A stretch of DNA of 64,000 nucleotides from Planctomycetota bacterium. GTDB taxonomy: Bacteria; Planctomycetota; UBA1135; UBA2386. The translations under genes were made by a program, and so were the position numbers. The stretch is taken from assembly GCA_965228735.1 (NCBI GenBank), contig OZ245838.1, positions 3,395,997 to 3,459,996 on the forward strand. The letters run 5' to 3'. Under the pieces are notes generated by a model. The model worked only from the letters and a program-made list of their open reading frames with translations. It was not told the origin of the DNA and did not search any database. This document shows positions 25,931-60,697 of the stretch, in pieces (the first letter of the stretch is position 1; each line of letters opens with the position of its first letter).

Positions 25931-25970
25931 GCCCGAGCGCGCACCGCCAGGAGAACACCGAAGAACTGCC

Positions 25971-26399
25971 ATGAACGACCGCCACGAACCCGAAGGCTCG
26001 ATCGACGAGCTGCTCGACGATCTCGAGATCCGCTGCGCCACGGGCGTCGGCGCGGCTCGCCACGTGTCCTCCTCGCGGCGTCGGATGGCGATCGCGATCC
26101 GCCCCGGCAACGTCCACGAACGCGGGAGCGCGAACCCGGCCATCGCCGGTGAGAGCACCGAGTTCCGACGCCAGGGACTGACCCTGCGAACGGCACGCCC
26201 GCTGATGGTCGGCGACATCTTTCACCTGACGTTCGACGCGCCCGACTACGACGTCGCGCCGGTCCTCGCGATGTGCGAGCGCTGCTCGATGCTCGGGACG
26301 GACTCGTTCGAAGTGCGCTTCCTGCTCGTGCGCGAGCCCGACCTACCGGAGCCACAACCGTTCGCCCCGGCGGGCACGGACGACGAGCTCGACTCGTAG
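25971..26399 (+). CDS. Small PilZ-like (putative c-di-GMP-binding) protein
   Basis: 142 aa. Arg cluster (SSSRRRMAIAIR) followed ~10 residues later by an NxAxxG variant of the DxSxxG motif (NPAIAG). Weak; domain assignment by motif only. Confidence 0.45.
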   Translation: MNDRHEPEGSIDELLDDLEIRCATGVGAARHVSSSRRRMAIAIRPGNVHERGSANPAIAGESTEFRRQGLTLRTARPLMVGDIFHLTFDAPDYDVAPVLAMCERCSMLGTDSFEVRFLLVREPDLPEPQPFAPAGTDDELDS

Positions 26400-26437
26400 C
26401 ACGAAGAACCGCCGGCGGCCATCCCACACGAACGACA

Positions 26438-28303: not shown

Positions 28304-28318
28304 CGCGGAACTCTTGAG

Positions 28319-37196: not shown

Positions 37197-37330
37197 GCGG
37201 ACCTCGCGGAATCCCCGTAGCGGGGTTGTGTACGGTGCCAGGCACGCACCACAACCCCCTGGCACGAACCACAACCCCTGTGGCGATCGCGGCGCGCTAC
37301 GATGGACGCGCTTCTCGCCCTACGCTCGCC

Positions 37331-41715: not shown

Positions 41716-43479
41716 ATGACCGTCCGCTTCTTCGTTCTCACTGTTGCCCTCTCCGCGCCGCTCGCCGCCCAGGCGATCCCCGTGCCGCTGAACTACAACT
41801 TCAACGGCATCGTCCATACCGGTGAAGCCGGGTTCCCCGACGCGCCGAACGGCTTCCGGTCGATCTCCGATCGCGCGCTCGACTTCACGCTCGGCGTGCC
41901 GTCCGACCCGCTGCTCTCGAGCTATCAGCTCGTGACGACCCCGACCACGCTCGACATCGTGCATCTCGGCAACCGCAACACGGTGGACAACAGCAGCAAG
42001 CCCTTCGACCCCACGCCCAACGCCAACAACCTCGGCATCCAGCCGAACTGGCTGGCCAACCCGGACCAGACCGGCCCGCAGACCTCGGTGCTTGCGATGC
42101 CGATGCCCGTCACGTCGACGACGAGCGCCGCATTCCTCTACCAGGTCAGCAACGGCGGCGGTTCGTTCGACGTGAGGTTCACGTTCCAGAACAGCCCTGA
42201 CTTCACCGCGACGCTGTCGGCCGGCGACTGGTTCGGCGGCACCCTGCCCGGCACGGGCTCGGTCGACGAGGGTTTCCCCGACAACAACCTGTCGCTGACC
42301 GAGGGGCGCATCGATCTGTCCGCGTTCGCCGGCGACAACGTCACGGCGATCACGTTCGAGAACGCGAGCAACGGCAACGCGGGCTACGCGATCGTCGCGT
42401 GCAACTTCGAGTACCCGCCCGTGCCGTCCGGCGTGATCCGGATCCCGCTGAACTACAACTTCAACGGCATCGTGCACGCGGGTGAACCAGGCCTCCCCGA
42501 TGACCTGAACGGCTACCGCTCGATCTCCGATCGCGGCCTCGACTTCACGGCCGGCGTGCCGACGGACCCGATCCTCGCGCCCTACTCGGTCATCGACACC
42601 GCTGGCACGCTCGACATCGTCCACCTCGGCAACCGCGACACCGTGAACAACAACGGCCAGCCGTTCGACCTCATCCCCGACAACGACGACATCGGCGTCA
42701 TCCCCGCGTGGCTCCCGAGCGCCGACCAGACCGGCCCGCAGGTCACCCAGCTGTCGTCGCCGATCCTGCTCGACGGCAGCTCGCGCGCCACCGTGCTGTT
42801 CCAGATCAGCAACGGCGGCGGCTCGTTCGACGTCGAGTTCGGCTTCCAGGCCGGCCCCCCGGTGATCGCCTCGGTCACGGGCGGCGACTGGTTCGGCGGC
42901 ACCCTGCCCGGCACGGCCAACTTCGACAGCGGCCTGCCCGGCGCGAATCTGTCGCTGACCGAAGGCACGATCAACCTCTTCACCGAGGCTGGCCGCACGC
43001 TCACGAGCATCGCGTTCCAGAACCGGTCGAACACCAACGCCGGCTACGCGATCGTCGCGATGAACGTCATCGGCTGTGGCATCTGCACGAACTCCGCGAC
43101 GGCCGCGGTCACCAACCTCGGCGGCGGCACCGGCCCGACGCTGAGCTCGCAGTCGACGGCGCGCCTCGGTTGCGACCTCGACTGGTCGGTTGCGGGCGCG
43201 GTTCCGAGCAGCTTCGGCTTCTTCGTCCTCGGCCTCGGCTCCGCACCGACGCCGCTCAGCTCGTTCGTGCCGACCTGCACGACTGGCACGGTGCACATCG
43301 TCAACCCGTCGAACCTGTTCGTCGCGACGAGCGCCGCGGGTGGTGCCGGCGTGAACTTCGAAACGCCGAACGCCCAGTTCGTCTGCGGCGTGACGTTCGC
43401 GGCGCAGTACGCGGAGCTCGTCTCCGGCAGCTGCTTCGTGTCGATCAGCAACGCGGTGTCGATCACGGTCGGCAACTGA
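41716..43479 (+). CDS. Paralogue of the 37331-39106 protein (two IPLNYNFNGIVH repeats plus the Cys-containing C-terminal domain)
   Basis: Signal peptide (MTVRFFVLTVALSAPLAAQA). Two ~210-aa repeats. C-terminus (CTTGTVHIVNP...FVCGVTFAAQYAELVSGSCFVSISNAVSITVGN) is near-identical in pattern to the 37331-39106 protein. Confidence 0.65.
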   Translation: MTVRFFVLTVALSAPLAAQAIPVPLNYNFNGIVHTGEAGFPDAPNGFRSISDRALDFTLGVPSDPLLSSYQLVTTPTTLDIVHLGNRNTVDNSSKPFDPTPNANNLGIQPNWLANPDQTGPQTSVLAMPMPVTSTTSAAFLYQVSNGGGSFDVRFTFQNSPDFTATLSAGDWFGGTLPGTGSVDEGFPDNNLSLTEGRIDLSAFAGDNVTAITFENASNGNAGYAIVACNFEYPPVPSGVIRIPLNYNFNGIVHAGEPGLPDDLNGYRSISDRGLDFTAGVPTDPILAPYSVIDTAGTLDIVHLGNRDTVNNNGQPFDLIPDNDDIGVIPAWLPSADQTGPQVTQLSSPILLDGSSRATVLFQISNGGGSFDVEFGFQAGPPVIASVTGGDWFGGTLPGTANFDSGLPGANLSLTEGTINLFTEAGRTLTSIAFQNRSNTNAGYAIVAMNVIGCGICTNSATAAVTNLGGGTGPTLSSQSTARLGCDLDWSVAGAVPSSFGFFVLGLGSAPTPLSSFVPTCTTGTVHIVNPSNLFVATSAAGGAGVNFETPNAQFVCGVTFAAQYAELVSGSCFVSISNAVSITVGN

Positions 43480-43790: not shown

Positions 43791-43846
43791 ATCACTGGCC
43801 CCGAATCACTGGCCCCGAATCACTGGCCCCAAATCACTGGCCAACG
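43791..43846. repeat. Tandem 14-bp repeat (atcactggccccga) x ~3.7 between convergent genes, overlapping the stop codon of the Kelch gene
   Basis: Read directly: atcactggccccga atcactggccccga atcactggccccaa atcactggcc... The last unit contains the TGA (minus strand) of gene 43834-45945. Confidence 0.7.
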
Positions 43847-45945
43847 GTCAGCTCGATCCCCTGCGTCGCCTCGAGTCCGCCCGACCGCAGACCGAACGCC
43901 TGGGCGAACACCCGTAGCCCGACGAGCGTAGAGGCCGCCGGGATGGGCAGTGGCCAGCGGCCGTTGCCGAAGCCGTCGGTCGTCGTGAAGAGCGACACCC
44001 GCGGCTGCACGAGCAGCGTGCAGCCGGCGACCGGCGTCGCGGCCTGCTGGAGCCCAACGCCGAGCAGCGCCGGCGCTGCCGCCAAGTGACCGCTGCTCGA
44101 CAGCGTCAAGTCAGTGGCCGGCCGCGGCCAGTCGTCGGCGCGCAGTTGCAGCGTCGCCGGGCAACCCGTGCCATAGGAATCCGCGCGCGGCGACTGCAGG
44201 GCGAGCTCGTACAGACTCTCGCCGTCGAACAGCCGCACGCGTCCCGGCGCCGCGCTCACGGACGGCCACAGCGGCAGCGCCACGGCCGGGATCACGAGCT
44301 GCCTCCAATCGACGCCGTCCCAGATCCAGGTGTCGAGTTTGGCGCCGATGACGGCCGGTTCCGCCGACAACACGACGAGGCCCGTGACAGGTTCGAACGC
44401 CATGCTGACGAACGCGTCGGGTGCCGGGGCGTTGGCGGGCGTGAGCTGCTGCCAGCTCGTGCCGTTCCACGACCAGGTATCGGCGCGTGCGCCCACGACC
44501 GTGTCGCTCCCGCCCCACAGGAGCACGTTGCCACGCGCGAGGTCCCCGACCATCGCGGCGCCGCTGCGCGCGGTCGGCGCTACCGGCGTCGCGACCTGAT
44601 TCCAGCCCGCAGCGGTCAGCCGCCACGTGTCGCCTAGCGCCGTGCCCGGTCCCGTGCCACCGCCGAACAACAGCGCGCCGCCAGTCGTCGGGTCGAACGC
44701 CACGGCGGGATACTCGCGGCCCGGCGGTCGCTGCGCGGAAGCGACCGGGCTCCAGGTAATGCCATCGAAGCGCCACGTGTCATCGAGGAACTGGGTCGAG
44801 CTCACCCGCCCGCCGAACAGGAAGACGTCGTTGCCGTCGCTCCACATGCCGTGCTGCGAGCGCCGCGGCGGTGATGTCGGCGGCGCGCGCAGCAACCAGC
44901 TCGCGCCGTCCCACTCCCATGTCCGCGCCGCGTTCGCGCCCGCGACCAGGTCGCCGAACAGCACGAGTCGGTCGCGCGCGATCGAGTAGGCCGTACCCGG
45001 CGTGAAATTCTCGATGGGCAGCATCGTCGCGAATCGCTGGTTCCACGCCACGCCGTCCCACTCCCAAAGGTCCTGAGAGTTCGACGTGACGCCGCCGCCG
45101 ATCAACACCGTCCGGTCGCGATGGCTGTCGTAGACGACGCGGCCGCGACCGTGCGGCCCGGCCTGCGGCCACGGGGTCCAGGTGTTGCCGTCGTACTCCC
45201 ACGTATCCGGGGTCGCACCGCCGCCGTAGAGGACACTCACTCCGCGAGCGGTGTCGAACGTCATGTTCGCGCCGCTGCGCGCGCTCGGCGCGACCGGCGG
45301 TGTGCGCTGCGTCCAGGTGACGCCGTCCCACTCCCACGTGTCGCCGAGCGGCGGGTTCAGGATGAACATCGGATCCGTACCGCCGAACAGCACCGTCCGA
45401 CCACGCGCACGATCGAACGCCATCGCCGCGGCGATGCGCCGCGACGGCCCCACGACGTTGCGCAGCGTCCAGGTCGCGCCATCCCACTCCCAGGTCTGCA
45501 CGGCTGGCGTGGTCGATCCCCCGCAGACGAACACCGTGCGATCACGCGCGCTGTCGAACACCGCCTGGCCGTGAAGAAACACCTGCGGCCCCGTCGCGGT
45601 CACGCGCTGCTGCCAGCGGTTGCCGTCGAACTCGTAGACCTCGGTCATGAACAGGTTGGTCCAACGGTCGACGAGCGCGACCACCACGCCGCGCGTGCTG
45701 TCGTACGCCATGGCCTTGGGTCGCTGCGGCAGCAGGCCGACCGGGCGATGCAACCAGCGGCTGCCGTCCCACTCCCGCGTCTCAGCCGCGGCGCCGACGC
45801 CCACGAGCCGGCCGCGGACCTCGTCGAACACCGCGACCGTGGCCGCAACGAACGGATCGCCGACCACTCGCCATTCCTGACCACGGACCGACGAAGTCGC
45901 CAGCGCGAGCAGCGCACACAGCGAGGCGGGGAAAGCGGTCGACAT
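43834..45945 (-). CDS. Secreted Kelch-repeat (galactose-oxidase-like) beta-propeller protein with the shared C-terminal domain
   Basis: More than 10 repeats of the W-E/x-W-DG-xxW Kelch type (TWEWDGATWT, DTWEYDGNTWT, DLWEWDGVAWN, TWEWDGASWL, DTWRFDGITWS, TWSWNGTSWQ, DTWIWDGVDWR). Signal peptide from MSTAFPASLCALLALATSS; the start could instead be 45957 or 45999. The C-terminal ~110 aa matches the shared C-terminal domain. Confidence 0.7.
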   Translation of the reverse strand: MSTAFPASLCALLALATSSVRGQEWRVVGDPFVAATVAVFDEVRGRLVGVGAAAETREWDGSRWLHRPVGLLPQRPKAMAYDSTRGVVVALVDRWTNLFMTEVYEFDGNRWQQRVTATGPQVFLHGQAVFDSARDRTVFVCGGSTTPAVQTWEWDGATWTLRNVVGPSRRIAAAMAFDRARGRTVLFGGTDPMFILNPPLGDTWEWDGVTWTQRTPPVAPSARSGANMTFDTARGVSVLYGGGATPDTWEYDGNTWTPWPQAGPHGRGRVVYDSHRDRTVLIGGGVTSNSQDLWEWDGVAWNQRFATMLPIENFTPGTAYSIARDRLVLFGDLVAGANAARTWEWDGASWLLRAPPTSPPRRSQHGMWSDGNDVFLFGGRVSSTQFLDDTWRFDGITWSPVASAQRPPGREYPAVAFDPTTGGALLFGGGTGPGTALGDTWRLTAAGWNQVATPVAPTARSGAAMVGDLARGNVLLWGGSDTVVGARADTWSWNGTSWQQLTPANAPAPDAFVSMAFEPVTGLVVLSAEPAVIGAKLDTWIWDGVDWRQLVIPAVALPLWPSVSAAPGRVRLFDGESLYELALQSPRADSYGTGCPATLQLRADDWPRPATDLTLSSSGHLAAAPALLGVGLQQAATPVAGCTLLVQPRVSLFTTTDGFGNGRWPLPIPAASTLVGLRVFAQAFGLRSGGLEATQGIELTVGQ

Positions 45946-46023
45946 CGTGGAGGGCATGGCGCGAGTCGAGCATACGACCCGGCGGCACTCACGTGGCAAT
46001 CGCGACCGGTGAGACCGCGCGGC

Positions 46024-47196
46024 TCACAGCACGGTGCTGATGCCCGGGTTGCTGGCCTGCAGCGTGTTCGCGTTCGCGTCGTGGCCCACGGCCTGCCAGG
46101 CGAACTGCGTGCCGACGAACGCCGGGTTGTTGGGCACCGCCACCGAGGCCGTCAGCGGCTGACCGGCCGGTGGCACACCGAACGCAACGAACGCGAAGAC
46201 GGTCGGGTCGAGCCACAGTTCGTCGACGACGCCCGCGATCGCGAGCGGTGGACCGCGGAAACCGAGCACCACGATCAATGGGTCGCCGGCGGCAGTCCGG
46301 GCCGCGGCGGTGAAGCTGCCACCGGGTGGCGCGTCGGTCGCCACGAGAGCCGGCAAGCTGCGGGCAAGGGGTGCCGGAGCATTGCCGATGACGTGCACCG
46401 CCGGGTCGAGCCGGAACGCACTCAGCGAATGGACCGCTATGGCCACCGGCGGCCCGATGAGAGGACTGTATACCGCGCCACGCAGGATCCGGACGTTCGA
46501 GGTCGAGCCCACGACGTCGACACCCGGCGAGCCACCGACGAGGACGCCATTGCTGAACGAGCCAAGACCACCCGAGATCATGTTGTCGGCGAGCACGATC
46601 GTGCCGCCGAGGATCGTGACTCCGGGGGTCGAGCTCGACGAGTGGAACGAGATCCCGCGGCCTCGCAGCGCACAGCCGTCGATCGTCGCGGCGCAGACCA
46701 CGAGCTCGACGTGACCTTCGACCGAGCAGTCTCGAATCATCAACTGGTCACAGCTGCTGGCACGCAGCGAGCTCTGGAACGCGCACTGCGGCCCCAGACA
46801 GCCTTGCGCCAGGAACTCGAGATCGGCGAGCAGCACGAGGTCCGCGCAGTCGGTCAGCACGAGCTGGGAGAGCACGGTCTGATTGACGTAGAGCGGACTG
46901 GCCAAGGTCAGCCCGCGCAGCTCGACCGGCTGGCCGATCTGCGTCGCGGTGATCGCGATCTGGCCGTCGATCGTCACCCCAGGCTCGCCGCGAATCGCGA
47001 ACCCCTTGCCGGCGACCGAGAAGCCGGCGTAGCTGCCAGCGCGCACGACGAGAGTGGCTCCCGACGGAACCGCGGCCACGGCCGCGGTGAGCGTCGTGAA
47101 GTGCGTGCCAGGGCCGCCGGCCGCGTCGACGACGAACGTCTGGCTCGGCACGGCGGCGGCAAGCAGAACGAGCCCGAGGGCGGCGGTGCGCAGCAT
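46024..47196 (-). CDS. Secreted right-handed beta-helix repeat protein with a shared-C-terminal-domain-like end
   Basis: Signal peptide (MLRTAALGLVLLAAAVPSQT). Periodic G/N/V/I beta-helix coil repeats (pectate-lyase-like). C-terminal ...LWLDPTVFAFVAFGVPPAGQPLTASVAVPNNPAFVGTQFAWQAV resembles the shared domain but is divergent. Confidence 0.6.
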   Translation of the reverse strand: MLRTAALGLVLLAAAVPSQTFVVDAAGGPGTHFTTLTAAVAAVPSGATLVVRAGSYAGFSVAGKGFAIRGEPGVTIDGQIAITATQIGQPVELRGLTLASPLYVNQTVLSQLVLTDCADLVLLADLEFLAQGCLGPQCAFQSSLRASSCDQLMIRDCSVEGHVELVVCAATIDGCALRGRGISFHSSSSTPGVTILGGTIVLADNMISGGLGSFSNGVLVGGSPGVDVVGSTSNVRILRGAVYSPLIGPPVAIAVHSLSAFRLDPAVHVIGNAPAPLARSLPALVATDAPPGGSFTAAARTAAGDPLIVVLGFRGPPLAIAGVVDELWLDPTVFAFVAFGVPPAGQPLTASVAVPNNPAFVGTQFAWQAVGHDANANTLQASNPGISTVL

Positions 47197-48560: not shown

Positions 48561-51719
<3,159 letters not shown>

Positions 51720-51785
51720 CGGGGTGAGCAGTGTGACGACTCACCCCCTCGTTGGCAATCGCGAGGGTCCCTCGGGGCCCGTCGG

Positions 51786-54740
51786 TCAGCGCACCCGTCG
51801 GAGTTCGACCACCGCGGCGGCGTGGCGCCGAGCCAACGAACCGACGACGACCTCGCCCCGCCAACCGGCGCCCGACTCGGCCTGGACGTCGAGGTCGAAC
51901 GTGCCGACGGGCAAGAACGCCATCACGCTCGGTGGCGCGTCACGCAGCACCGTGAACTCACCGAACACGCGGCCGTCGCGGCGCCGGCGCAGGCCGATGT
52001 GCAGCACCTCGTGGCCGAACGCCTCGTCGGCCTTCAGAGCGAGCGCGCGACGGGTGACGGCTTCGACCTCGAGGTCGAGCTCGGTTGCCTCGCCTTCTTC
52101 GACCTCGAACGGCACGCCGTTGACCCATGCGAAGTCCTCGCCCATCGCGTAGAGCCGGAACGAACCGACGGGCACCCGCAGCTCACCGGTCGCTGATTCG
52201 GCCCGTGCGTAGCGCCGGGGTGCCGGCGCGCTGACGACGGTGACCACGGCGCCCGCGATGGGCCGGCCGTCGCTGCGCCGCAGTCGATACCGGACGAGGC
52301 CGCTCGGACCCGCCCGCAACACCACGTCGGCAGGAACGCCCGCAGCGAGGACGACGTGGTCGTTCCGCACCGCGGGCTGCGTCGGGTCCGTGCTCTCGAC
52401 GAACACGGAGTAGGAGCCCGGCGCGAGCGCCGGAACGGCGAAGTAACCGCTTCGGTCCGTGCTCGCGCACTCCCAGAACACGTCGGTGTGACAGCGCAGG
52501 TAGACCCGCCCGAACGGGATCGGCGTATCGCCGACGCCGAGGCAGCGGCCGCGGAGCCCGGCGGTCGGCCGCCACCGCTCCGGCACGGTCACGGCGACAC
52601 CCGTGCTCGTCGTGCGGATGCTCCCGGGCTCGACGTCGTGCCACACCGGATCGCCCGCGGCCCGCACGCGCAGCCGCACCGGCCCCTCGCGCTCCCGCAG
52701 GTCACACCGGCCGTCCTCGTCGGTGACCGCCTCCTCGACGCTCGGGATCAACGCCGAACGCGTGCTGGTCTGACAACGCACGTTCCACCCCGCGGCCGGC
52801 GCGCCATCCGAGAAGGCAACCTCGGCCACGAACCGCGGCTCGATCGGCAACTCGATCACGAGCGGATCCTGCGCGCCGACGCCGCCGTCGAGCACGACGC
52901 GGCGAGCAGCGTGGCCCGGCGCGCGCGCGCACACGACTCCGTGGCCCGCCGGCAGATCGAACCGGAACGTGCCGTCCGCCGCGACCTGCAACCCGACGAC
53001 CTGATCGCGGTCCGGCCCGCGATAGACGACCTCGGCGCTCGCCAGCGCGGCGCCTGCCGAGTCGATTACCCGGCCCCGCAGCGTGCGGGCTTCGCGCATC
53101 GTGAGGGCCAGTTCGACGGTCTCGTCGGTCGCGATCGTGACCGATCTGGCGACCGCCTGCCGCCCCCGGACGCGGGCGTAGATCTCGTGCTCACCCGGCG
53201 GCAGCCAGAGCGGCCCGAACCGGCCGTGAGCATCCGTTCGCACGGTCACCGTCGGCGCCGCCTGCATCTCGACTCCGTCCGGCAATCCCACGGCCGCGAA
53301 CTCCGGCGCCGCACCAGCGGTCACGGCGACGTCCGCGCACGGGCGACCGGCCGGATCGCACAGCGTCCCCGAGACCGCGCCGGCCGGCGCGAGGCGCAGC
53401 CTGAGTTCGCCACCATCGCGCGCGCACGGCCGCGGCGGCGCCACGGCGTGCGGAGCCATGGCAGCAACGATCGCGACCCGCGGCATCGCGCCCAGGGCGA
53501 ATCGACCCGCAGCGTCCGTGCGAGTCACCACGCCGCCGCCGAACGCATCGTCGACGGCCGCGAGCCAGACAGCGGCCCCCGCGGCGGGCTCACCATCGCG
53601 ACCGATCACGACGCCGCGCCGGGTGGGCCCGTTCGCGACCAGCTGCACGACGCCGGCGTCGCGCGCGGGGTCGAGCGACCGCTCCTGACCACGGTCGCTG
53701 CGCAGCCGCACGCGTCGCCCGATCAACCCGTCGAACCGAACGCTGCCGTCGATCGCCGTGACACCGCGGCGGCGCGCGGCGAGCGGGTCTTCACCGCTGA
53801 CCGGCTCGACCCATACGCCGACCCCGGGAACCGCTTCGCCGTCGCGGTCGCGAACCTGCACGACGAGGCCGTTCCCGGCCGTCTTCGAAGCTGCCGGCAT
53901 CGGTACCGGAAACCGCGAGTCAATCGCGGCATCGGCAGCATGCGGGGTCGCGTCACCCCGCGGGTCGCCCGCCGGGTCACCCCCGGAGTCACGCTGGGCC
54001 ACGGCCGCGCCCCGCGGCGCGGGTTCCGAGGCCCCGGAGAAGGGCACGACGGCCAGCGCGACGACGACGAGCGCCGCGACGGCGCCGAACGAGGTCGCCC
54101 GAGCCGGCCCCCGCCCCCACCAACGTCGCGGGCACGCGCTGGTCCGTTGCCCAGGAACGGCGGTCGCGAGCAACAACGCCAACAACGCCGGCGTCAATCC
54201 TCGCGGCAACCGCCGCCGCAGTTCGCGGAGGCCGCGAAACAGGTGAACCCGCGTCGTCGCCTGCAGCCGGCCGAGACGCCTGCTGACCTCGCGCGGCGTC
54301 AGGCCTTCGAGCACGTGGAGCTCGAGCGCGACCCGATAGTGCTCCGGCACGCTCGCGATCGCACGCCGGAGCAGGGCGTGCAGTTCGCTGCCCGCGGCCG
54401 CGTCGACCGGGCTGTCGGTCGACGCCGAGCGATCGAGTGCCCACGCCTGCTGATGGCGATGCCGCCGGGCCTCGCTGCGAACGTGGTTGGCGATCTTGCG
54501 CGTGAGGATGCCCTGCAGCCACGGCAAGAGCGGCTGCGACGCATCGTACGCCGCCGACCGCTGCACCGCCGTCACCATCGTCTCGTGCACGAGCTCCTCG
54601 ACGAGGTCCGCGGAGAGGGCGAACCGCATGGCGAAGCTGCGGAGCCGCGGCGAACAACGCCGGACGACCGCGGCCAGCGCGTTCTCGTCGCCGTCGTCGA
54701 GGAAGCGGCGGAACAGGATCTCGTGTGTGTCGACGGCCAC
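51786..54740 (-). CDS. Membrane-tethered ECF sigma factor: sigma70 regions 2 and 4 fused to TM helices and a ~700-aa extracytoplasmic beta-sandwich-repeat region
   Basis: Region 2 (DLVEELVHETMVTAVQRSAAYDASQPLLPWLQGILTRKIANHVRSEARR). Region 4 (LTPREVSRRLGRLQATTRVHLFRGLRELRRRL). TM segments (LTPALLALLLATAV; FGAVAALVVVALAVVPF). Then repeated carboxypeptidase-regulatory-like/Ig-like segments (GRVIDSAGAALASAEVV, GTLCDPAGRPCADVAV...). Confidence 0.7.
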   Translation of the reverse strand: MAVDTHEILFRRFLDDGDENALAAVVRRCSPRLRSFAMRFALSADLVEELVHETMVTAVQRSAAYDASQPLLPWLQGILTRKIANHVRSEARRHRHQQAWALDRSASTDSPVDAAAGSELHALLRRAIASVPEHYRVALELHVLEGLTPREVSRRLGRLQATTRVHLFRGLRELRRRLPRGLTPALLALLLATAVPGQRTSACPRRWWGRGPARATSFGAVAALVVVALAVVPFSGASEPAPRGAAVAQRDSGGDPAGDPRGDATPHAADAAIDSRFPVPMPAASKTAGNGLVVQVRDRDGEAVPGVGVWVEPVSGEDPLAARRRGVTAIDGSVRFDGLIGRRVRLRSDRGQERSLDPARDAGVVQLVANGPTRRGVVIGRDGEPAAGAAVWLAAVDDAFGGGVVTRTDAAGRFALGAMPRVAIVAAMAPHAVAPPRPCARDGGELRLRLAPAGAVSGTLCDPAGRPCADVAVTAGAAPEFAAVGLPDGVEMQAAPTVTVRTDAHGRFGPLWLPPGEHEIYARVRGRQAVARSVTIATDETVELALTMREARTLRGRVIDSAGAALASAEVVYRGPDRDQVVGLQVAADGTFRFDLPAGHGVVCARAPGHAARRVVLDGGVGAQDPLVIELPIEPRFVAEVAFSDGAPAAGWNVRCQTSTRSALIPSVEEAVTDEDGRCDLREREGPVRLRVRAAGDPVWHDVEPGSIRTTSTGVAVTVPERWRPTAGLRGRCLGVGDTPIPFGRVYLRCHTDVFWECASTDRSGYFAVPALAPGSYSVFVESTDPTQPAVRNDHVVLAAGVPADVVLRAGPSGLVRYRLRRSDGRPIAGAVVTVVSAPAPRRYARAESATGELRVPVGSFRLYAMGEDFAWVNGVPFEVEEGEATELDLEVEAVTRRALALKADEAFGHEVLHIGLRRRRDGRVFGEFTVLRDAPPSVMAFLPVGTFDLDVQAESGAGWRGEVVVGSLARRHAAAVVELRRVR

Positions 54741-54744
54741 CCGG

Positions 54745-55863
54745 CTACTGGATGATGCGGACCGCGGCGGGCTCGGAGGCCGCGACCGTCGGATAGTACG
54801 TGAACCACGCGAAGTTCACGGTTTGTCCGAGCAAGACCGCCGGCACCGGGACCTGGGTATCGAACGACGCATTCGCCGTACCGTCGGCCGACAACGTGCC
54901 GAGGAATCCCGGCAGCGCCGCGGTGCCGAGGCCGCCCGCAAGCGCGCCGAGGAACCAGTCGGAGTTGAGCGGCAGCGTCACGCCGCCGAGCGGGATGCCG
55001 GGCGTCGTCCCGGAGATCGACCCGAGCAGCGCGTACGCATCGCCGGCGCCCTCGCCGTAGAGCCGCAGCGTGAGCGTCTCGCGGCGGTTGATCCGCAGTT
55101 CTTCGAGATCGACGGAGAGGCTGTTCGGGGCCGTCCGTTCGCGGACCGTGAAGTTGTCGAAGACGAGGCTGTCGTCACCGGCGCCATGGAGCGTGAGCTG
55201 CGTGAAGCCGTGCGCCGGCAGGTTGGTGAGCGTCGCGGTCGGCTGACCCGTCGCGACGAGCTGACCGTCGATGTAGAGCGCGGTCGCGTCGCCGATGATG
55301 TCGACGACGGTGCGCGTGTGATGCCAGGTGTCACGCGTCACGAAGTAGCCGGTCGGACTCCAGACGCGATTGCTCGTCGACATGAAGTGCACCTCACCGT
55401 CGCTCTGGATGTCCCAGAGGAGCTGCGAGGACCACGGGTGCGGCGCCGGCTGGGTGTAGAACCCCCACGCCGTCGAGGGCTGGCTGCTGCTCGTCAGGTA
55501 GAAGTCGAACTCGACCTCGATCACGCCGGTCGAGAGGTTGAAGAGCGCGTTCCGGCGCAGCTCGCCGGTCGCGCCTGGCGCCATCTGCGACGCGTCCCAG
55601 CGAACGGCCTGTTCGCCGCTGCGGACGACCGTCGATTGGATCTGCGCGGCGGCCAGATTGGGGATGCCCTGGACGCTGTCGAACAGCATCCAGCCATCCT
55701 GCCCGCTGGTCATCGAGATGCCGGGCAACGCGCCGGGCACGTAGCGCGGCGCCTCGAACGAGCCGGCCGAGAACGACCCGTACTGACTTTGCGCCGAAGC
55801 GGCATCGAGCGGCAGGAGGAGGAGAACGGAGAGCGGGAGAGATCCCGAGAGCAGGTGTTTCAT
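54745..55863 (-). CDS. Secreted concanavalin-A-like (LamG/jelly-roll) protein with the shared C-terminal domain
   Basis: Signal peptide (MKHLLSGSLPLSVLLLLPLDAASAQ). Lectin/glucanase-like beta-sandwich composition. C-terminal AYALLGSISGTTPGIPLGGVTLPLNSD...LLGQTVNFAWFTY. Stop is 4 nt before the ECF-sigma start. Confidence 0.6.
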   Translation of the reverse strand: MKHLLSGSLPLSVLLLLPLDAASAQSQYGSFSAGSFEAPRYVPGALPGISMTSGQDGWMLFDSVQGIPNLAAAQIQSTVVRSGEQAVRWDASQMAPGATGELRRNALFNLSTGVIEVEFDFYLTSSSQPSTAWGFYTQPAPHPWSSQLLWDIQSDGEVHFMSTSNRVWSPTGYFVTRDTWHHTRTVVDIIGDATALYIDGQLVATGQPTATLTNLPAHGFTQLTLHGAGDDSLVFDNFTVRERTAPNSLSVDLEELRINRRETLTLRLYGEGAGDAYALLGSISGTTPGIPLGGVTLPLNSDWFLGALAGGLGTAALPGFLGTLSADGTANASFDTQVPVPAVLLGQTVNFAWFTYYPTVAASEPAAVRIIQ

Positions 55864-55970
55864 CGCGATCGAGAGGCGACCAGGGGAAATGGGGGGTCCC
55901 CGGGTTGGCCCGCGAGCGAACGACCGTTTCAGAATTCCCGATCAGTCGATCGGGTGCGTACCTACCCGCC

Positions 55971-56645
55971 CTACAGCCGCACCGTCATGCCGAAGAGGAC
56001 GCCGCTCATGTCGATGTCGACGTCGCCGTTCGTGGCCGTGATGTCGTCGTATTCGCCCTCCCAGTCGTGATAGGCGACGAAGAGGTCGAGCTCCTCGGTG
56101 GGCGTGAACTTCAGGCCGGCCTCGAAGTGGCCGGCGTAGCCGTCGTCGAGCAGGTGCGCCTTGGCCCGCATGTAGGGGCCGATCCACTCGCGCAGGCGGA
56201 CGCGGGCTTCGAAGCCGAAGAACGGGCCGTAGTAGTTCTTGCGGACGTCGAACATCGGGTTGTCGTCGAACTCGATCCGGTCGACGCCGAAGCCGAACAG
56301 GCCGAAGGCCTCGACGCGGCGCGCGCGGAAGCCCGGCTTGTAGGCCACGCCGGCGTGCGCGAGCCGGTAGTCGGCGTCGCCGAGGCCGCCGCCGAGGTCG
56401 GTGTCACCGAGTCCGCCCGTGACGTCGAGCTCGAAGTACTGGCGAAATCCGCCGCGGCGCCCGTTCTCCGGGCGCGGGCCCGACATCGGGGCCGACAGAT
56501 CGAAGTCGAAGCGCGCCGCCGCGAACACGGCGCCGGTGTCCTCGGCGTCCACATCCGAACTCACGCAGCCGCCGAGGCCCAGGAACACCACGACGGAGAA
56601 CACCGTGGCGAGGAGCGGACAGACCATCGTTCGCCGGGTCGTCAT
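55971..56645 (-). CDS. Hypothetical lipoprotein / outer-membrane protein
   Basis: Start MTTRRTMVCPLLATVFSVVVFLGLGGC (lipobox LGGC). Gly/aromatic-rich, beta-strand-like periodicity. Confidence 0.45.
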   Translation of the reverse strand: MTTRRTMVCPLLATVFSVVVFLGLGGCVSSDVDAEDTGAVFAAARFDFDLSAPMSGPRPENGRRGGFRQYFELDVTGGLGDTDLGGGLGDADYRLAHAGVAYKPGFRARRVEAFGLFGFGVDRIEFDDNPMFDVRKNYYGPFFGFEARVRLREWIGPYMRAKAHLLDDGYAGHFEAGLKFTPTEELDLFVAYHDWEGEYDDITATNGDVDIDMSGVLFGMTVRL

Positions 56646-57214: not shown

Positions 57215-57319
57215 GGGCGTTCTCTGACTTGCGATTCTCCGAATCGTCTCGGCCGGATGCAATCGGGTGGGCGCTCCCGGGGGGTGTCCACCCTTCGGCG
57301 AATCACCCATGATGCCGCC

Positions 57320-58927
57320 ATGAAGGAGCCAATTCTCGCCGCGATGGTCGTCACGGTTCTCGCGCCGAACGCGTTCGCCCAGGCCCCCGGCCTGCGCATC
57401 TTTCAATCCATCCCCGCCGGCGAGACGCGGATCGTCGACAACCAGGGCACGATCGTGAAGACCTACCCCGGCACCGGCGCGCTGACCGCGCACGTGATGC
57501 CAGACGGCACGCTCGTGCGCGCGATCCAGATCGGCGGGCTCACCGTGACGGGCATGACGGGGCGGATCGAGCGGCTCGCGTTCGACGGCACGCTCCTCTG
57601 GCAATACCAGCTGGCCGGGCCGTTCCGCTACGCGCATCACGACATCGAACCGATGCCGAACGGCAACGTGCTCGTGATCGCGTGGGATCGCCGCACGCGC
57701 GACGACGCGATCGCGGCCGGGCGCGACCCGGCGTCGGCGACGGCGCCGGACTTCCTGCCCGACTCCATCCTCGAGATCCAGCAGACGGGCCCGACGACGG
57801 GGAACATCGTCTGGGAGTGGCACATCTGGGATCACCTGATCCAGGACTTCGACCCGACGAAGGCGAACTACGGCGACGTCGCCGCCCACCCCGAACTCGT
57901 CGACATCAACTACCCCCCGCTCGTGCTAGGTGACGGTGACTGGAACCACGCCAACGGTCTGGACTACGACCCGGTGAACGACTGGATCATCCTGAGCTCG
58001 CGGGCGCAGGACGAGATCTACCTGATCGATCATTCGACGACGACCGCGGAGGCGGCGGATCACACGGGCGGTCGGCGCGGCAAGGGCGGCGACATCCTCT
58101 ACCGCTGGGGCAACCCGGCGGCCTACCGCGCGGGCACGGCAGCGCACCAACAGCTCGACGGGCAACACGACCCGCGGTTCATCCCGCCGGGTTTCCCGGG
58201 CGCTGGCAATCTCACGGTCTTCAACAACGTCTACCAGGCGGGGCAGTCCGCGGTTCACGAGCTCACCCTGCCGCTCGATCCGCAGGGCAACATCGAGCTC
58301 GATCCGACGACCGGGCGATACGGGCCGACCGCGCCGACGTGGACGTTCACCGAGGCCGGCTTCTTCTCGCAGGTGACGTCGAGCGCCGAGCGCCTGCCGA
58401 CCGGCAACACGCTGATCTGCAGCGGCACGCAGCGAGAGTTGCGCGAGGTCACGCCGGCCGGTCAGACGGTGTGGCTGTTCGCGGATCCGTCGAACCCGTT
58501 CCTGCTGTTCCAGACCCACTACGTCGAACGCGCGCTCTGGGCCTCGCGCGCGAAGCTGCCGATCGCTGGCGGTCACGTCGCGTTCGATCTGCTGACCGGG
58601 TCGGCGCACGCCGGCGAGACCTATCTGCTGCTCGGTTCGATCTCGGGAACGGGCCCGGGAACGCTGCTCCCCGGGGGTGTCGTCCTGCCACTCAACCTCG
58701 ACTACTTCACCCTGGCCATGGCGACCACGTTCAACAACGCGCTGTTCGTCGACAACGTCGGCGCGCTCGATGCGGTCGGCGGCGGCAGGGCCGCGATCGT
58801 CGCGCCCCCCGGGCTGATCCCCACCGCACTCGTCGGGATCGACATGGACTTCGCCTACGTCACCTGGGACGCGGCGTTCTCGCCGGTGCGCGCCAGCAAC
58901 CCCGTGCGGGTCACGATCGTGCGGTAG
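57320..58927 (+). CDS. Secreted arylsulfotransferase (ASST)-like beta-propeller protein with the shared C-terminal domain
   Basis: Signal peptide (MKEPILAAMVVTVLAPNAFAQA). ASST-family hallmarks (YAHHDIEPMPNGNVLVIAWD, WEWHIWDH, DWNHANGLDYDP, RLPTGNTLICSG). C-terminal TYLLLGSISGTGPGTLLPGGVVLPLNLD...LVGIDMDFAYVTWD. Confidence 0.7.
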   Translation: MKEPILAAMVVTVLAPNAFAQAPGLRIFQSIPAGETRIVDNQGTIVKTYPGTGALTAHVMPDGTLVRAIQIGGLTVTGMTGRIERLAFDGTLLWQYQLAGPFRYAHHDIEPMPNGNVLVIAWDRRTRDDAIAAGRDPASATAPDFLPDSILEIQQTGPTTGNIVWEWHIWDHLIQDFDPTKANYGDVAAHPELVDINYPPLVLGDGDWNHANGLDYDPVNDWIILSSRAQDEIYLIDHSTTTAEAADHTGGRRGKGGDILYRWGNPAAYRAGTAAHQQLDGQHDPRFIPPGFPGAGNLTVFNNVYQAGQSAVHELTLPLDPQGNIELDPTTGRYGPTAPTWTFTEAGFFSQVTSSAERLPTGNTLICSGTQRELREVTPAGQTVWLFADPSNPFLLFQTHYVERALWASRAKLPIAGGHVAFDLLTGSAHAGETYLLLGSISGTGPGTLLPGGVVLPLNLDYFTLAMATTFNNALFVDNVGALDAVGGGRAAIVAPPGLIPTALVGIDMDFAYVTWDAAFSPVRASNPVRVTIVR

Positions 58928-59029: not shown

Positions 59030-60697
59030 ATGCCTCCGTGTCTCCCGCCCGCGCCCGCAGCCCAAGGGCAGCCGCTGGGCGCCGCGCTCGCCGCGGCAGC
59101 CTGGCTGATCGTCGGAACCATCGCGACCGGGGCCCGAACGTCGGCCCAGGCGCCGGGACTGCGGGTCTTTCAGGCCATCGGCAGTCTGCCGACGCGCATC
59201 GTCGACAACCTGGGCAACGTCGTGCACAGCTATCCCGGCGGCGCGGTCCTCTCGGCGCACGTCGCCGAGGACGGCACGCTCGTGCGCTCGCAGCAGATCG
59301 GCGGCATCGCGGTGCCGGGCGCGACCGGTCGGCTGCAGCGGCTCGCGTTCGACGGCACGGTGCTCTGGCAGTTCGACGTCTCGGGTCCGTTCGAGTATGC
59401 GCATCACGACATCGAGCCGATGCCGAACGGCAACGTGCTCGTGATCGCGTGGGATCGCTACACGACGGCCGACGCGATCGCCGCGGGTCGCGACCCCGGG
59501 CTCGTGTCCGGCACCGACTGGCTGCCCGATGCGATCCTCGAGATCGCGCCGACCGGGCCGACGGCGGGCGCGATTGTCTGGGAGTGGCACATGACGGATC
59601 ACGTGATCCAGGACTTCGACCCGACGCGCCCCGACTTCGGCGTCGTCGCCAACCACCCCGAACTGCTCGATCTCAACTACCCGCCCGTGCTCGTCACGGA
59701 CGGCGACTGGAATCACTTCAACGGACTCGACTACGACCCCGTCAACGACTGGATCATCGTCAGCTCCCGCGCGCAGAACGAGATCTACCTGATCGACCAC
59801 TCGACGACGACGGCCGAGGCCGCGGGTCACACGGGCGGCGCGCGCGGTCGCGGCGGCGACATCCTGTATCGCTGGGGCAACCCGGAGGCCTACCGCGCCG
59901 GCACGGCGGCCAACCTGACCCTCAACGGGCAGCACGACCCGCGTTTCGTGCCGCCGGGCTTCCCGGGTGCCGGCAACCTCACGATGTTCAACAACGTGTT
60001 CCTGCCGGGTCAGTCCGCCGTGCACGAGTTCGCGATCCCGCTCGACGCGCAGGGCAACCCGACGATCGACCCGGTCACGGGCCGCTACGGCCCGGCGGCA
60101 CCGACCTGGACGTTCACCGAACCCGGGTTCTTCTCCGCCGTGACATCGAGCGCCGAACGCCTGCCGAACGGCAACACGCTGATCTGCAGCGGCACGCAGC
60201 GTGAACTGCGGGAGGTCACGCCGGCCGGCCAGACCGTCTGGCAATTCAGCGATCCCGCCAACCCGTCGCTGCTCTTCCAGTGCAACTACGTCGATCGTTC
60301 CCTGTGGCACGACACGACCGAGCTGTCCGCGGGCGTCGGTGGCACGATCGGGCTCGGTCACCTCACGGGCTCGGCGCACGCCGGCGAGCTCTACCAATTG
60401 CTCGGCTCGATCTCGGGCACCGCCCCCGGCACGACGCTGCCCGGCGGCGTGCACCTGCCGCTCAACATCGACTTCCTCACGCAGAACATGGCGACGAACT
60501 ACAACAACGCGCTGTTCGTCGACACGATCGGCGCGCTCGACGGCATGGGCGCCGGAACCTCCGCGATCGTCGTGCAGCCAGGCCTCGTTCCGACCGCCCT
60601 CGTCGGGGTCGAACTCGACTTCGCCCACCTCGTCTGGGACGCGACGTTGTCACCCGTGCGCGCGAGCAATTCGGTGCGAGTGACGATCACGCCGTGA
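59030..60697 (+). CDS. Tandem paralogue of the ASST-like protein with the shared C-terminal domain
   Basis: ~65-70 % identical by eye to 57320-58927 over the whole length (FEYAHHDIEPMPNGNVLVIAWDRYT..., same C-terminal domain LYQLLGSISGTAPGTTLPGGVHLPLNID...LVGVELDFAHLVWD). Confidence 0.7.
   Translation: MPPCLPPAPAAQGQPLGAALAAAAWLIVGTIATGARTSAQAPGLRVFQAIGSLPTRIVDNLGNVVHSYPGGAVLSAHVAEDGTLVRSQQIGGIAVPGATGRLQRLAFDGTVLWQFDVSGPFEYAHHDIEPMPNGNVLVIAWDRYTTADAIAAGRDPGLVSGTDWLPDAILEIAPTGPTAGAIVWEWHMTDHVIQDFDPTRPDFGVVANHPELLDLNYPPVLVTDGDWNHFNGLDYDPVNDWIIVSSRAQNEIYLIDHSTTTAEAAGHTGGARGRGGDILYRWGNPEAYRAGTAANLTLNGQHDPRFVPPGFPGAGNLTMFNNVFLPGQSAVHEFAIPLDAQGNPTIDPVTGRYGPAAPTWTFTEPGFFSAVTSSAERLPNGNTLICSGTQRELREVTPAGQTVWQFSDPANPSLLFQCNYVDRSLWHDTTELSAGVGGTIGLGHLTGSAHAGELYQLLGSISGTAPGTTLPGGVHLPLNIDFLTQNMATNYNNALFVDTIGALDGMGAGTSAIVVQPGLVPTALVGVELDFAHLVWDATLSPVRASNSVRVTITP

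What the first reader, a model, noticed from the sequence alone, without database searches (positions are those of the whole stretch)
51786..55863. Single-polypeptide membrane-tethered ECF sigma factor (sigma2/sigma4 + TM + ~700-aa periplasmic beta-sandwich repeats), co-transcribed with a shared-C-terminal-domain cargo gene
The 984-aa ORF has clear ECF sigma regions 2 and 4 at its N-terminus, then two hydrophobic segments, then a long extracytoplasmic region of carboxypeptidase-regulatory-like/Ig-like repeats. That fuses sigma and anti-sigma/sensor functions in one chain, like the '1-component' ECF groups with C-terminal TM extensions. Such sigma factors presumably need proteolytic release. 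The upstream gene (54745-55863, LamG-like + shared C-terminal domain) ends 4 nt before its start codon. This suggests cargo and regulator are co-expressed.
Basis: partly seen in the sequence, partly recalled or inferred. Interest (0 to 1): 0.6.

Follow-up and report, generated by a model that had tools for sequence, protein, structure and literature searches.

The report
Membrane-tethered ECF sigma factor with lectin-like partner
A planctomycete gene fuses an alternative sigma factor to a membrane anchor and a large outside-facing sensor, and it appears to switch on itself and one neighbouring secreted sugar-binding-type protein; the general design is already known, so this is a well-defined new family rather than a new principle.

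Summary
ORF 51786-54740 (-) encodes 984 aa: a bona fide ECF sigma core (sigma2 and sigma4, no sigma3), one transmembrane helix (aa 218-236) and about 695 aa of tandem beta-sandwich domains predicted to face outward.

Corrections:
- Only the second hydrophobic stretch is transmembrane-grade.
- No anti-sigma domain fits in the roughly 34 aa between sigma4 and the helix.

It is not an assembly artefact. More than 100 distinct full-length relatives exist, almost all in Planctomycetota.

The upstream gene (54745-55863) encodes a secreted concanavalin-A-like protein. It lies next to the orthologous fusion in 10 genomes.

A promoter-like motif, GAAAC-N17-(G/C)(G/C)AA(C/T), precedes the partner gene in all 10. 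It also precedes the sigma gene wherever the pair is divergent. It is absent from 28 paralogue loci and from the window's other shared-domain genes.

Best reading: a self-regulating, one-protein envelope sensor. Tethering probably keeps it inactive until proteolysis releases it, as shown for Pseudomonas putida IutY. That step is inferred, and the nearby M50 gene gives no support.

Verdict: new variant of a known kind, moderate interest.

The parts
55904..55930 (-). Promoter-like motif GAAAC-N17-CCAAC (candidate ECF -35 and -10 elements). It starts 67 nt upstream of the partner gene's ATG and is followed by a conserved run of C at about 55891-55896.
   Evidence: It is the only intergenic match in the 64-kb window. 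An equivalent motif precedes the partner gene in all 10 orthologous loci. It also precedes the sigma gene in all 7 divergent loci, with one variant ending in G. None was found upstream of 28 paralogous fusion genes.
54745..55863 (-). Partner ('cargo') gene, 372 aa: Sec-type signal peptide, then a concanavalin-A-like lectin/glucanase domain, then the shared C-terminal domain.
   Evidence: ORF. About 45 clusters share at least 50% identity. AF2 model: pLDDT 90.4, pTM 0.86. The gene is adjacent to the sigma fusion in 10 genomes.
55129..55782 (-). Concanavalin-A-like beta-jelly-roll domain of the partner protein (about aa 28-245).
54748..55077 (-). C-terminal domain of about 110 aa, shared with three other exported proteins of the window.
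   Evidence: tblastn matches at 58610-58924 (3e-13), 60380-60688 (9e-10) and 41349-41537 (9e-8). No Pfam or NCBIfam hit covers it.
51786..54740 (-). Sigma-TM-beta-sandwich fusion gene, 984 aa, GTG start 4 nt after the partner gene's stop codon.
   Evidence: Homologues P0001-P0005 align over the full length. More than 130 of the best 150 profile hits are full-length.
54219..54665 (-). ECF sigma core: sigma2 (aa 26-93), a linker of about 30 aa, and sigma4 (aa 123-174). There is no sigma3.
   Evidence: Pfam and NCBIfam. PDB sequence matches to RpoE/SigE-type ECFs cover aa 6-178. The AF2 model is helical across aa 6-177.
54162..54194 (-). Short conserved hydrophobic helix directly after sigma4 (aa 183-193, LTPALLALLLA). 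It is cytoplasmic or at the membrane interface, and is not a transmembrane segment.
   Evidence: Below the Kyte-Doolittle threshold. Helix 183-193 in the AF2 model. The position is conserved across the family.
54033..54089 (-). Single transmembrane helix (aa 218-236), oriented N-in/C-out.
   Evidence: Kyte-Doolittle 2.33. 72 of 79 relatives have a peak of at least 1.6 at a median start of residue 214, and charges follow the positive-inside rule. AF2 models a helix at 218-230.
53874..54032 (-). Pro/Ala-rich, poorly conserved, disordered extracytoplasmic linker (aa 237-289). It is a candidate site-1 cleavage region.
   Evidence: pLDDT below 50 for aa 231-288. This is the least conserved region, at 22-43% identity. 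The cleavage role is inference.
51789..53873 (-). Extracytoplasmic array of about 8 prealbumin/CarboxypepD_reg-like beta-sandwich domains (aa 290-984).
   Evidence: Pfam CarboxypepD_reg 3.3e-42. AF2 pLDDT is mostly above 90 and the whole-chain pTM is 0.72. Foldseek finds only generic tandem Ig-like hits with TM-scores near 0.1. No PDB sequence hit.

Best explanation
**What it is**

The two genes form a small self-regulating module of an uncultured Planctomycetota bacterium.

The 984-aa protein is an ECF sigma factor. About 34 residues link its sigma4 domain to a single N-in/C-out transmembrane helix. Outside the membrane come a disordered linker and about 8 tandem beta-sandwich domains.

Its regulon appears to be just two genes: itself and the adjacent gene for a secreted concanavalin-A-like (carbohydrate-binding or carbohydrate-cleaving type) protein. 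Both are read from a GAAAC-N17-(G/C)(G/C)AA(C/T) promoter. In this window one such promoter drives both genes as an operon.

**How it probably works (inferred)**

The membrane tether keeps the sigma domain inactive. An envelope or extracellular cue acts on the beta-sandwich ectodomain. The ectodomain is trimmed in the exposed linker, and a site-2-type intramembrane protease then cuts the helix. This releases a sigma fragment of roughly 20-25 kDa, which binds RNA polymerase and raises expression of the operon as positive feedback.

**Status of each step**
- Shown here: architecture, topology signals, family conservation, conserved gene pairing, and the shared promoter motif.
- Inferred: that this sigma recognises the motif, the nature of the signal, and the proteolytic release.
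For: - **Sigma core.** It is an ECF core above the curated thresholds, with no sigma3.
- **Topology.** There is one transmembrane helix with positive-inside charge bias across 79 relatives.
- **No anti-sigma domain.** Only about 34 aa separate sigma4 from the helix, too short for a class I anti-sigma domain.
- **Model.** AF2 gives pLDDT 86 and pTM 0.72: helical sigma core, disordered juxtamembrane regions and a confident beta-sandwich array.
- **Family.** At least 28 of 31 species-level relatives carry sigma2, sigma4 and CarboxypepD_reg. Nearly all are Planctomycetota, including cultured Engelhardtia mirabilis Pla133. More than 130 full-length 50%-identity clusters exist.
- **Pairing.** The partner gene is adjacent in 10 of 10 orthologous genomes: same strand in 3 and divergent in 7.
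- **Promoter.**
  - The motif lies at a near-constant 64-67 nt before the partner ATG in six of the eight loci checked for this.
  - It is duplicated in front of the sigma gene exactly where the genes are divergent.
  - It is absent in front of the sigma gene where they are co-directional.
  - It is absent from 28 paralogue loci.
  - Its -35-like GAAAC contains the ECF hallmark AAC (PMC8103513).
- **Precedent.** IutY is a sigma-TM-periplasmic-domain hybrid that is inactive until Prc and RseP cleave it (PMC5411451, PMC8999054).
Against: - No protease, cleavage site or released fragment can be demonstrated from sequence.
- The only M50-like gene in the window is a weak hit fused to HlyD, 23 kb away.
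- The -10-like element lacks the CGT typical of ECF promoters (PMC8103513).
- The two AAC-containing elements are also direct repeats about 22 nt apart. They could instead be binding sites for another regulator.
- In the window alone the strict motif is not significant: 2 matches against 0.39 expected, and 8 of 100 shuffles reach 2. Its weight comes from cross-genome conservation.
- The partner protein could be a co-sensor rather than only an output.
Confidence: 0.6

Rival explanations
1. The sigma factor works while still tethered, with no proteolysis. Like ToxR or CadC, it recruits RNA polymerase to membrane-proximal DNA. The ectodomain tunes its activity through oligomerisation or conformational change.
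For: - No anti-sigma domain is present, and no dedicated protease gene sits in the conserved neighbourhood.
- The ectodomain is long, rigid-looking and conserved (whole-chain pTM 0.72), which would suit ligand-driven clustering.
- The literature itself asks whether planctomycetal ECFs with very large extensions can still bind RNA polymerase (PMC7671368).
Against: - The only characterised sigma-TM hybrid, IutY, is inactive until cleaved (PMC5411451).
- A tether of about 34 residues to sigma4 would sterically constrain holoenzyme formation and promoter binding.
- The disordered, poorly conserved extracytoplasmic linker looks like a protease-accessible region.
Confidence: 0.2
2. The secreted concanavalin-A-like partner is part of the sensor rather than merely an output. 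It binds the beta-sandwich ectodomain. Engagement of the partner with its glycan ligand changes the ectodomain's susceptibility to cleavage. This would be a feedback loop that uses a diffusible or surface-anchored lectin as the receptor.
For: - The partner is more conserved (50-66% identity) than the fusion's ectodomain (28-43%).
- The pairing is invariant in 10 genomes even though gene orientation changes.
- The partner has a carbohydrate-recognition fold.
Against: - No interaction was or could be tested here.
- Adjacent target genes are the norm for ECF sigma factors, so adjacency alone is explained by simple regulation (PMC7826278).
Confidence: 0.12
3. The single ORF is an artefact: a frameshift or assembly error has joined a separate sigma gene to an anti-sigma or surface-protein gene. 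Alternatively, the repeats are cytoplasmic because two hydrophobic segments form a hairpin.
For: Two hydrophobic stretches follow sigma4. High-GC genomes produce long spurious ORFs.
Against: - Relatives at 94%, 43%, 41%, 31% and 29% identity from independent assemblies are collinear over the full length.
- More than 130 further full-length clusters exist.
- Codon-position GC (0.78/0.57/0.86) fits a real gene throughout.
- The first hydrophobic stretch is too short and below the threshold, and charge bias places the C-terminus outside.
Confidence: 0.02

Closest known systems
IutY of Pseudomonas putida (sigma/anti-sigma hybrid, ECF243; PMC5411451, PMC8999054)
   Same: [quoted passage not shown] There is no cytoplasmic anti-sigma domain. 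It regulates the adjacent gene. This is the mechanistic template (tether means off, regulated intramembrane proteolysis means on).
   Different: - IutY is 374 aa, with a FecR-type periplasmic domain.
- It receives its signal from a TonB-dependent transducer (IutA) in Proteobacteria.
- The protein here has about 695 aa of beta-sandwich repeats and no FecR domain or TonB receptor neighbour.
- Its partner is a secreted concanavalin-A-like protein, and it comes from Planctomycetota.
- Proteolysis is unproven here.
Actinobacterial ECF48/ECF52/ECF53 (for example SCO4117; PMC5826349, PMC8999054)
   Same: ECF sigma fused C-terminally to transmembrane helices and an extracytoplasmic region that is carbohydrate-binding in ECF52. 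Activation by proteolysis is proposed.
   Different: Those groups carry a zinc-finger (ZAS-like) anti-sigma module between sigma4 and the membrane. Here only about 34 residues lie there, with no HxxxCxxC motif and no zinc-finger hit. The phylum and the ectodomain also differ.
Planctomycetal ECFs with long, variable C-terminal extensions (ECF57 / 'ECF01-Gob' type; PMC7671368, PMC7826278, PMC8999054)
   Same: Same phylum and the same general layout: a sigma core plus a very large C-terminal extension, present as multiple paralogues per genome.
   Different: - ECF57 is described with WD40-like repeats and two conserved cysteines linking sigma2 and sigma4. Here there are no WD40 repeats and only one, non-conserved cysteine (C29).
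- Those extensions were described as poorly conserved and possibly fortuitous. This family's extension is collinear and conserved over about 700 aa in more than 100 clusters.
- This family also has a fixed partner gene.
RsgI/SigI systems of Clostridium thermocellum (from my own knowledge, not checked in a paper here)
   Same: A membrane sensor with extracellular carbohydrate-related modules controls an alternative sigma factor, which drives genes for secreted carbohydrate-active proteins.
   Different: There the sigma and anti-sigma factors are separate proteins, SigI is not an ECF, and the organism is Gram-positive.

Membership tests
ECF (group 4) sigma-70 family | Sigma2 and sigma4 domains score above curated thresholds | tested here: met
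   PF04542 scores 38.3 against a cut-off of 24. PF08281 scores 36.8 against 25.7. TIGR02937 scores 74.1 against 42.9. PDB matches to RpoE/SigE cover aa 6-178.
ECF (group 4) sigma-70 family | No sigma1 or sigma3 domains | tested here: met
   There is no Sigma70_r3 or r1 hit. Only about 30 aa lie between sigma2 and sigma4.
Named ECF subgroup (ECF Hub groups; NCBIfam subfamilies) | Score above a subgroup-specific HMM threshold | tested here: not met
   All NCBIfam subfamily or equivalog models fall far below their cut-offs, for example TIGR02984 (plancto1) 53.8 against 183.75 and TIGR02989 47 against 124.55. ECF Hub HMMs were not available, so ECF Hub group assignment was not testable.
IutY-type sigma/anti-sigma hybrid | Sigma domain, single transmembrane segment and periplasmic domain in one chain | tested here: met
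IutY-type sigma/anti-sigma hybrid | FecR-like periplasmic domain and a partner TonB-dependent transducer | tested here: not met
   There is no FecR hit in the protein. None of the called neighbours in the related loci carries a TonB-receptor family hit.
IutY-type sigma/anti-sigma hybrid | Activation by sequential proteolysis (Prc then RseP) | not testable with these tools
   This needs western blots and protease mutants. The only M50-like gene in the window is a weak HlyD fusion.
ECF48/52/53 (ZAS-containing fused anti-sigma) | Zinc-finger anti-sigma domain between sigma4 and the transmembrane helix | tested here: not met
   Residues 179-217 contain no HxxxCxxC motif and give no zinc-finger Pfam hit. 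The median gap in the family is 34 aa.
ECF57 (planctomycetal, WD40-type extension) | WD40-like repeats in the extension, and two conserved cysteines in sigma2/sigma4 | tested here: not met
   There is no WD40 hit. The sigma core has a single cysteine (C29), which is replaced in P0004 and P0005. These features are as described in PMC8999054.
Class I anti-sigma domain (fused) | Helical domain of about 80-90 aa that binds sigma2 and sigma4 | tested here: not met
   Only one short helix (aa 183-193) lies between sigma4 and the transmembrane helix, and its pLDDT falls from 68 to 43. There is too little sequence for such a domain.
Concanavalin-A-like lectin/glucanase superfamily (partner protein) | Beta-jelly-roll fold | tested here: met
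Concanavalin-A-like lectin/glucanase superfamily (partner protein) | Pfam Laminin_G_3 above the gathering score | tested here: inconclusive
   23.3 bits against a cut-off of 27.6.

The most novel reading that the evidence does not exclude
The pair is a two-part extracellular sensing circuit of a kind not yet described. The secreted concanavalin-A-like protein acts as the ligand-binding receptor. It reports glycan binding to the beta-sandwich ectodomain of a sigma factor that is itself the membrane transducer. The system would then have no anti-sigma domain, no TonB transducer and possibly no release from the membrane. In that case the sigma-TM-CarboxypepD_reg paralogues in these genomes would form a family of one-protein trans-envelope sensors, each matched to its own secreted partner.
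Probability: 0.12. Interest if true: 0.7.

Novelty: new variant of a known kind. Interest (0 to 1): 0.42.

Why it matters
ECF sigma factors fused to their own membrane sensor are the least understood class of this large regulator family. Only IutY has been dissected experimentally.

This family offers a clean, conserved test case in Planctomycetota:
- the architecture is fixed;
- a single partner gene is always adjacent;
- a promoter motif is predictable from comparative data;
- a cultured relative of the wider family exists (Engelhardtia mirabilis).

That makes it possible to test directly whether tethering alone silences a sigma factor and how such proteins are released.

It also suggests how these bacteria couple envelope or glycan sensing to the secretion of carbohydrate-recognising proteins.

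It does not overturn any current view.

Tried and rejected
- **Motif upstream of the other shared-domain genes** (39078-41663, 57290-58927, 59030-60697). None was found. The only extra relaxed matches, at 37460 (+) and 42187 (-), lie inside coding sequence.
- **M50 link.** Gene 28319-30490 combines a weak Peptidase_M50 hit (30.1 bits) with HlyD, inside a three-gene HlyD cluster. It has no PDZ and no RseP-like features, so there is no support.
- **Two-helix hairpin topology.** Rejected.
- **Fusion artefact.** Rejected.
- **Exact-sequence look-up of the window protein.** Not on record.
- **Word-index homologue search.** It suggested only about 10 relatives. The full HMM scan showed this was an undercount.
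- **Ectodomain against PDB.** The sequence search gave no hits. Foldseek gave only generic tandem Ig-like hits with TM-scores near 0.1, so no specific global fold relative was found.
- **AFDB fold search.** The library was not installed.
- **Papers.** Supplements of the ECF classification papers, and the Jogler 2012 and Wiegand 2020 papers, are not held. Whether ECF Hub already lists this family could therefore not be checked.
- **Literature search.** A search for 'carboxypeptidase regulatory-like' with 'sigma factor' and 'ECF' found 0 papers.
- **Sigma-70 promoters and intrinsic terminators in 51500-56300.** None found.

Full report
**1. Observation**

The ORF list shows 51786..54740 (-), a GTG start and 984 aa. 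Immediately upstream lies 54745..55863 (-), an ATG start and 372 aa. The junction reads TAG-CCGG-GTG, so the gap is 4 nt. Codon-position GC (0.78/0.57/0.86) marks the long ORF as a real gene in this roughly 69% GC window.

Domain searches on the 984-aa protein:
- Pfam finds Sigma70_r2 (aa 26-93), Sigma70_r4_2 (aa 123-174) and five CarboxypepD_reg stretches (3.3e-42).
- NCBIfam's general ECF model TIGR02937 scores 74.1 against a cut-off of 42.9.
- Every subfamily model falls far below its cut-off.
- The first 240 aa match solved ECF sigma factors (RpoE, SigE, SigH, SigK, SigW) over aa 6-178.

**2. Topology**

A Kyte-Doolittle scan with a 19-aa window finds one transmembrane-grade segment, aa 218-236 (score 2.33). 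The first hydrophobic stretch (aa 183-196) does not reach the threshold.

In an alignment of 79 full-length relatives:
- 72 have such a peak, starting at a median of residue 214.
- That is a median of 34 residues after the end of sigma4.
- K/R average 2.7 in the 15 residues before the helix and 1.1 after it.
- D/E average 0.27 before and 1.4 after.

This is the positive-inside pattern of an N-in/C-out anchor.

AlphaFold2 with this alignment gives pLDDT 86.2 and pTM 0.72. The model has:
- a helical sigma core;
- a short helix at aa 183-193;
- a disordered stretch at aa 193-217;
- a helix at aa 218-230;
- a disordered stretch at aa 231-288;
- about eight beta-sandwich domains from aa 290 to 984, mostly above pLDDT 90.

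The space between sigma4 and the membrane is too small for a class I or zinc-finger anti-sigma domain, and none is detected.

**3. Is it real, and how common is it?**

The word-index search returned only about ten relatives, at 94, 43, 41, 31 and 29% identity. All are collinear over the full length.

The exhaustive profile search corrected that impression. More than 130 of the best 150 representatives (50%-identity clusters) are 950-1030 aa and match the whole 986-position profile in one stretch.

A scan of one genome per species found 62 loci. Almost all the long ones come from Planctomycetota metagenome-assembled genomes, plus the cultured Engelhardtia mirabilis Pla133. In these loci the gene is 800-1170 aa with a hydrophobic peak near residue 215-250. 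Of 31 species-level relatives, 28 carry sigma2, sigma4 and CarboxypepD_reg.

A frameshift or assembly artefact is excluded. The protein belongs to a sizeable planctomycetal family with several paralogues per genome. For example, L071 holds two within 13 kb, and L011 comes from the same genome.

**4. The partner gene**

The 372-aa neighbour has about 45 clusters at 50% identity or more. A homologue lies next to the orthologous fusion in ten distinct genomes:
- on the same strand 4-20 nt upstream in three (window, L001, L002);
- divergent in seven (L005, L008, L010, L069-L072).

The other 28 fusion loci lack it and are paralogues.

That C-terminal domain of about 100 aa is shared with two arylsulfotransferase-like proteins and a glucose/sorbosone-dehydrogenase-like protein in the window. 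It has no Pfam or NCBIfam match.

**5. Promoter**

Upstream of the partner gene the window has GAAAC-N17-CCAAC (55930-55904, minus strand), starting 67 nt before the ATG. It is the only intergenic match in 64 kb.

- **Partner side.** The same arrangement, G(A/G)AAC-N17-NNAA(C/T), precedes the partner gene in all ten orthologous loci. In six of the eight loci checked for distance it starts 64-67 nt before the ATG. The exceptions are L001, whose annotated start is uncertain, and L005.
- **Sigma side, divergent loci.** A second copy precedes the sigma gene in all seven divergent loci (one variant ends in G).
- **Sigma side, operon loci.** No copy precedes the sigma gene in the three co-directional loci.
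- **Paralogues.** None occurs upstream of the 28 paralogous fusion genes.

The consensus over the 17 sites is tGAAACAG-N13-GG-(G/C)(G/C)AA(C/T), followed on the partner side by a run of C about 8-10 nt downstream.

Within the window alone the strict motif is not significant: 2 matches against 0.39 expected. Its weight comes from conservation of position and from the presence/absence pattern across genomes.

The -35-like element carries the ECF hallmark AAC. The -10-like element lacks the usual CGT (PMC8103513).

The simplest reading is an autoregulated ECF promoter whose regulon is the pair itself. In this window the two genes form one operon. That this particular sigma factor reads the motif is inferred.

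**6. Mechanism**

The closest characterised system is IutY of P. putida. It has a cytosolic ECF domain, one transmembrane segment and a periplasmic domain in a single chain. It is inactive until Prc and RseP remove the periplasmic part and cut at the membrane. Truncation to the sigma domain makes it constitutive (PMC5411451, PMC8999054).

By analogy, the tether here is the off-state. The disordered, poorly conserved extracytoplasmic linker (22-43% identity, against 41-64% for the sigma core in the three partner-linked relatives P0002-P0004) is the likely first cleavage region.

This step is not shown. No protease gene is conserved nearby.

Alternatives that remain open:
- The tethered protein is active without cleavage.
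- The secreted lectin-like partner is part of the sensor.

**7. Comparison with known systems**

[quoted passage not shown] Planctomycetes are known for ECFs with very large, variable extensions (PMC7671368).

This family fails several defining features:
- It lacks the zinc-finger module of ECF48/52/53.
- It lacks the FecR domain and TonB partner of IutY.
- It lacks the WD40 repeats and paired cysteines described for ECF57.
- It fails all NCBIfam subgroup thresholds.

It works like an IutY-type hybrid but is not a member of that family. ECF Hub assignment could not be tested. A full-text search for the ectodomain's Pfam name together with 'sigma factor' and 'ECF' found no paper.

**8. Verdict**

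Three corrections apply:
- There is one transmembrane helix, not two.
- There is no anti-sigma domain.
- There is no support for the M50 link or for a wider 'shared-domain' regulon.

The added value is the family definition, the invariant partner gene and the predicted promoter. It is a new variant of a known kind, of moderate interest.

Noticed in passing
window 54748-55077 (-), 58610-58924 (+), 60380-60688 (+), 41349-41537 (+): A C-terminal domain of about 100 aa (motif LLGSxSGTxPG...LPLN) ends four otherwise unrelated exported proteins: the concanavalin-A-like partner, two arylsulfotransferase-like proteins and a glucose/sorbosone-dehydrogenase-like protein. It has no Pfam or NCBIfam match. 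More distant database hits show it on further Planctomycetota proteins. It may be a lineage-specific sorting or anchoring domain.
   Followed up: partly
window 41716-43479 (+) and 43834-45999 (-), possibly also 46024-47196 (-): A second, weaker shared C-terminal region (blastp 6e-4) links a protein with no Pfam hit and a Kelch-repeat protein. It could be a distant variant of the same C-terminal domain.
   Followed up: no
window ~37330-39106 (+): This looks like a real gene with a signal peptide and the motif PLNYNFNGI. It is an apparent paralogue of 41716-43479. It is hidden inside a longer mechanical ORF (36386-39106) and overlaps the listed start of the next gene (39078).
   Followed up: partly
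window 25037-30490 (+): A cluster of three HlyD-type membrane-fusion genes. The last (28319-30490) also carries a weak Peptidase_M50 match (30.1 bits against a cut-off of 27.2). It looks like a secretion or efflux module rather than an RseP-type site-2 protease.
   Followed up: partly
window ~51727-51753 (-): An inverted repeat, GGGGTGAG-N11-CTCACCCC, lies in the 66-nt gap between the sigma fusion's stop codon and the isoleucyl-tRNA synthetase ATG (51719). No T-run follows it. Its function is unknown.
   Followed up: no
window 55891-55896 (-), and the equivalent positions in L001, L002, L005, L008, L010, L069-L072: A run of five or six C about 8-10 nt downstream of the -10-like element is conserved in the partner-gene promoters. 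It could lie near the transcription start or form part of the leader.
   Followed up: partly
L071 (2830-5754 and 12955-end) and L011, all from MAG SMAG_U1950: Single genomes carry several paralogous sigma-TM-CarboxypepD_reg fusions. Only one of them is paired with the concanavalin-A-like gene, and the paralogues lack the promoter motif. This suggests a set of parallel sensors with different targets.
   Followed up: partly
window 57290-58927 (+) and 59030-60697 (+): Tandem paralogous arylsulfotransferase (ASST)-like beta-propeller genes. Their C-terminal 130 aa are 64% identical, and both end in the shared C-terminal domain.
   Followed up: no
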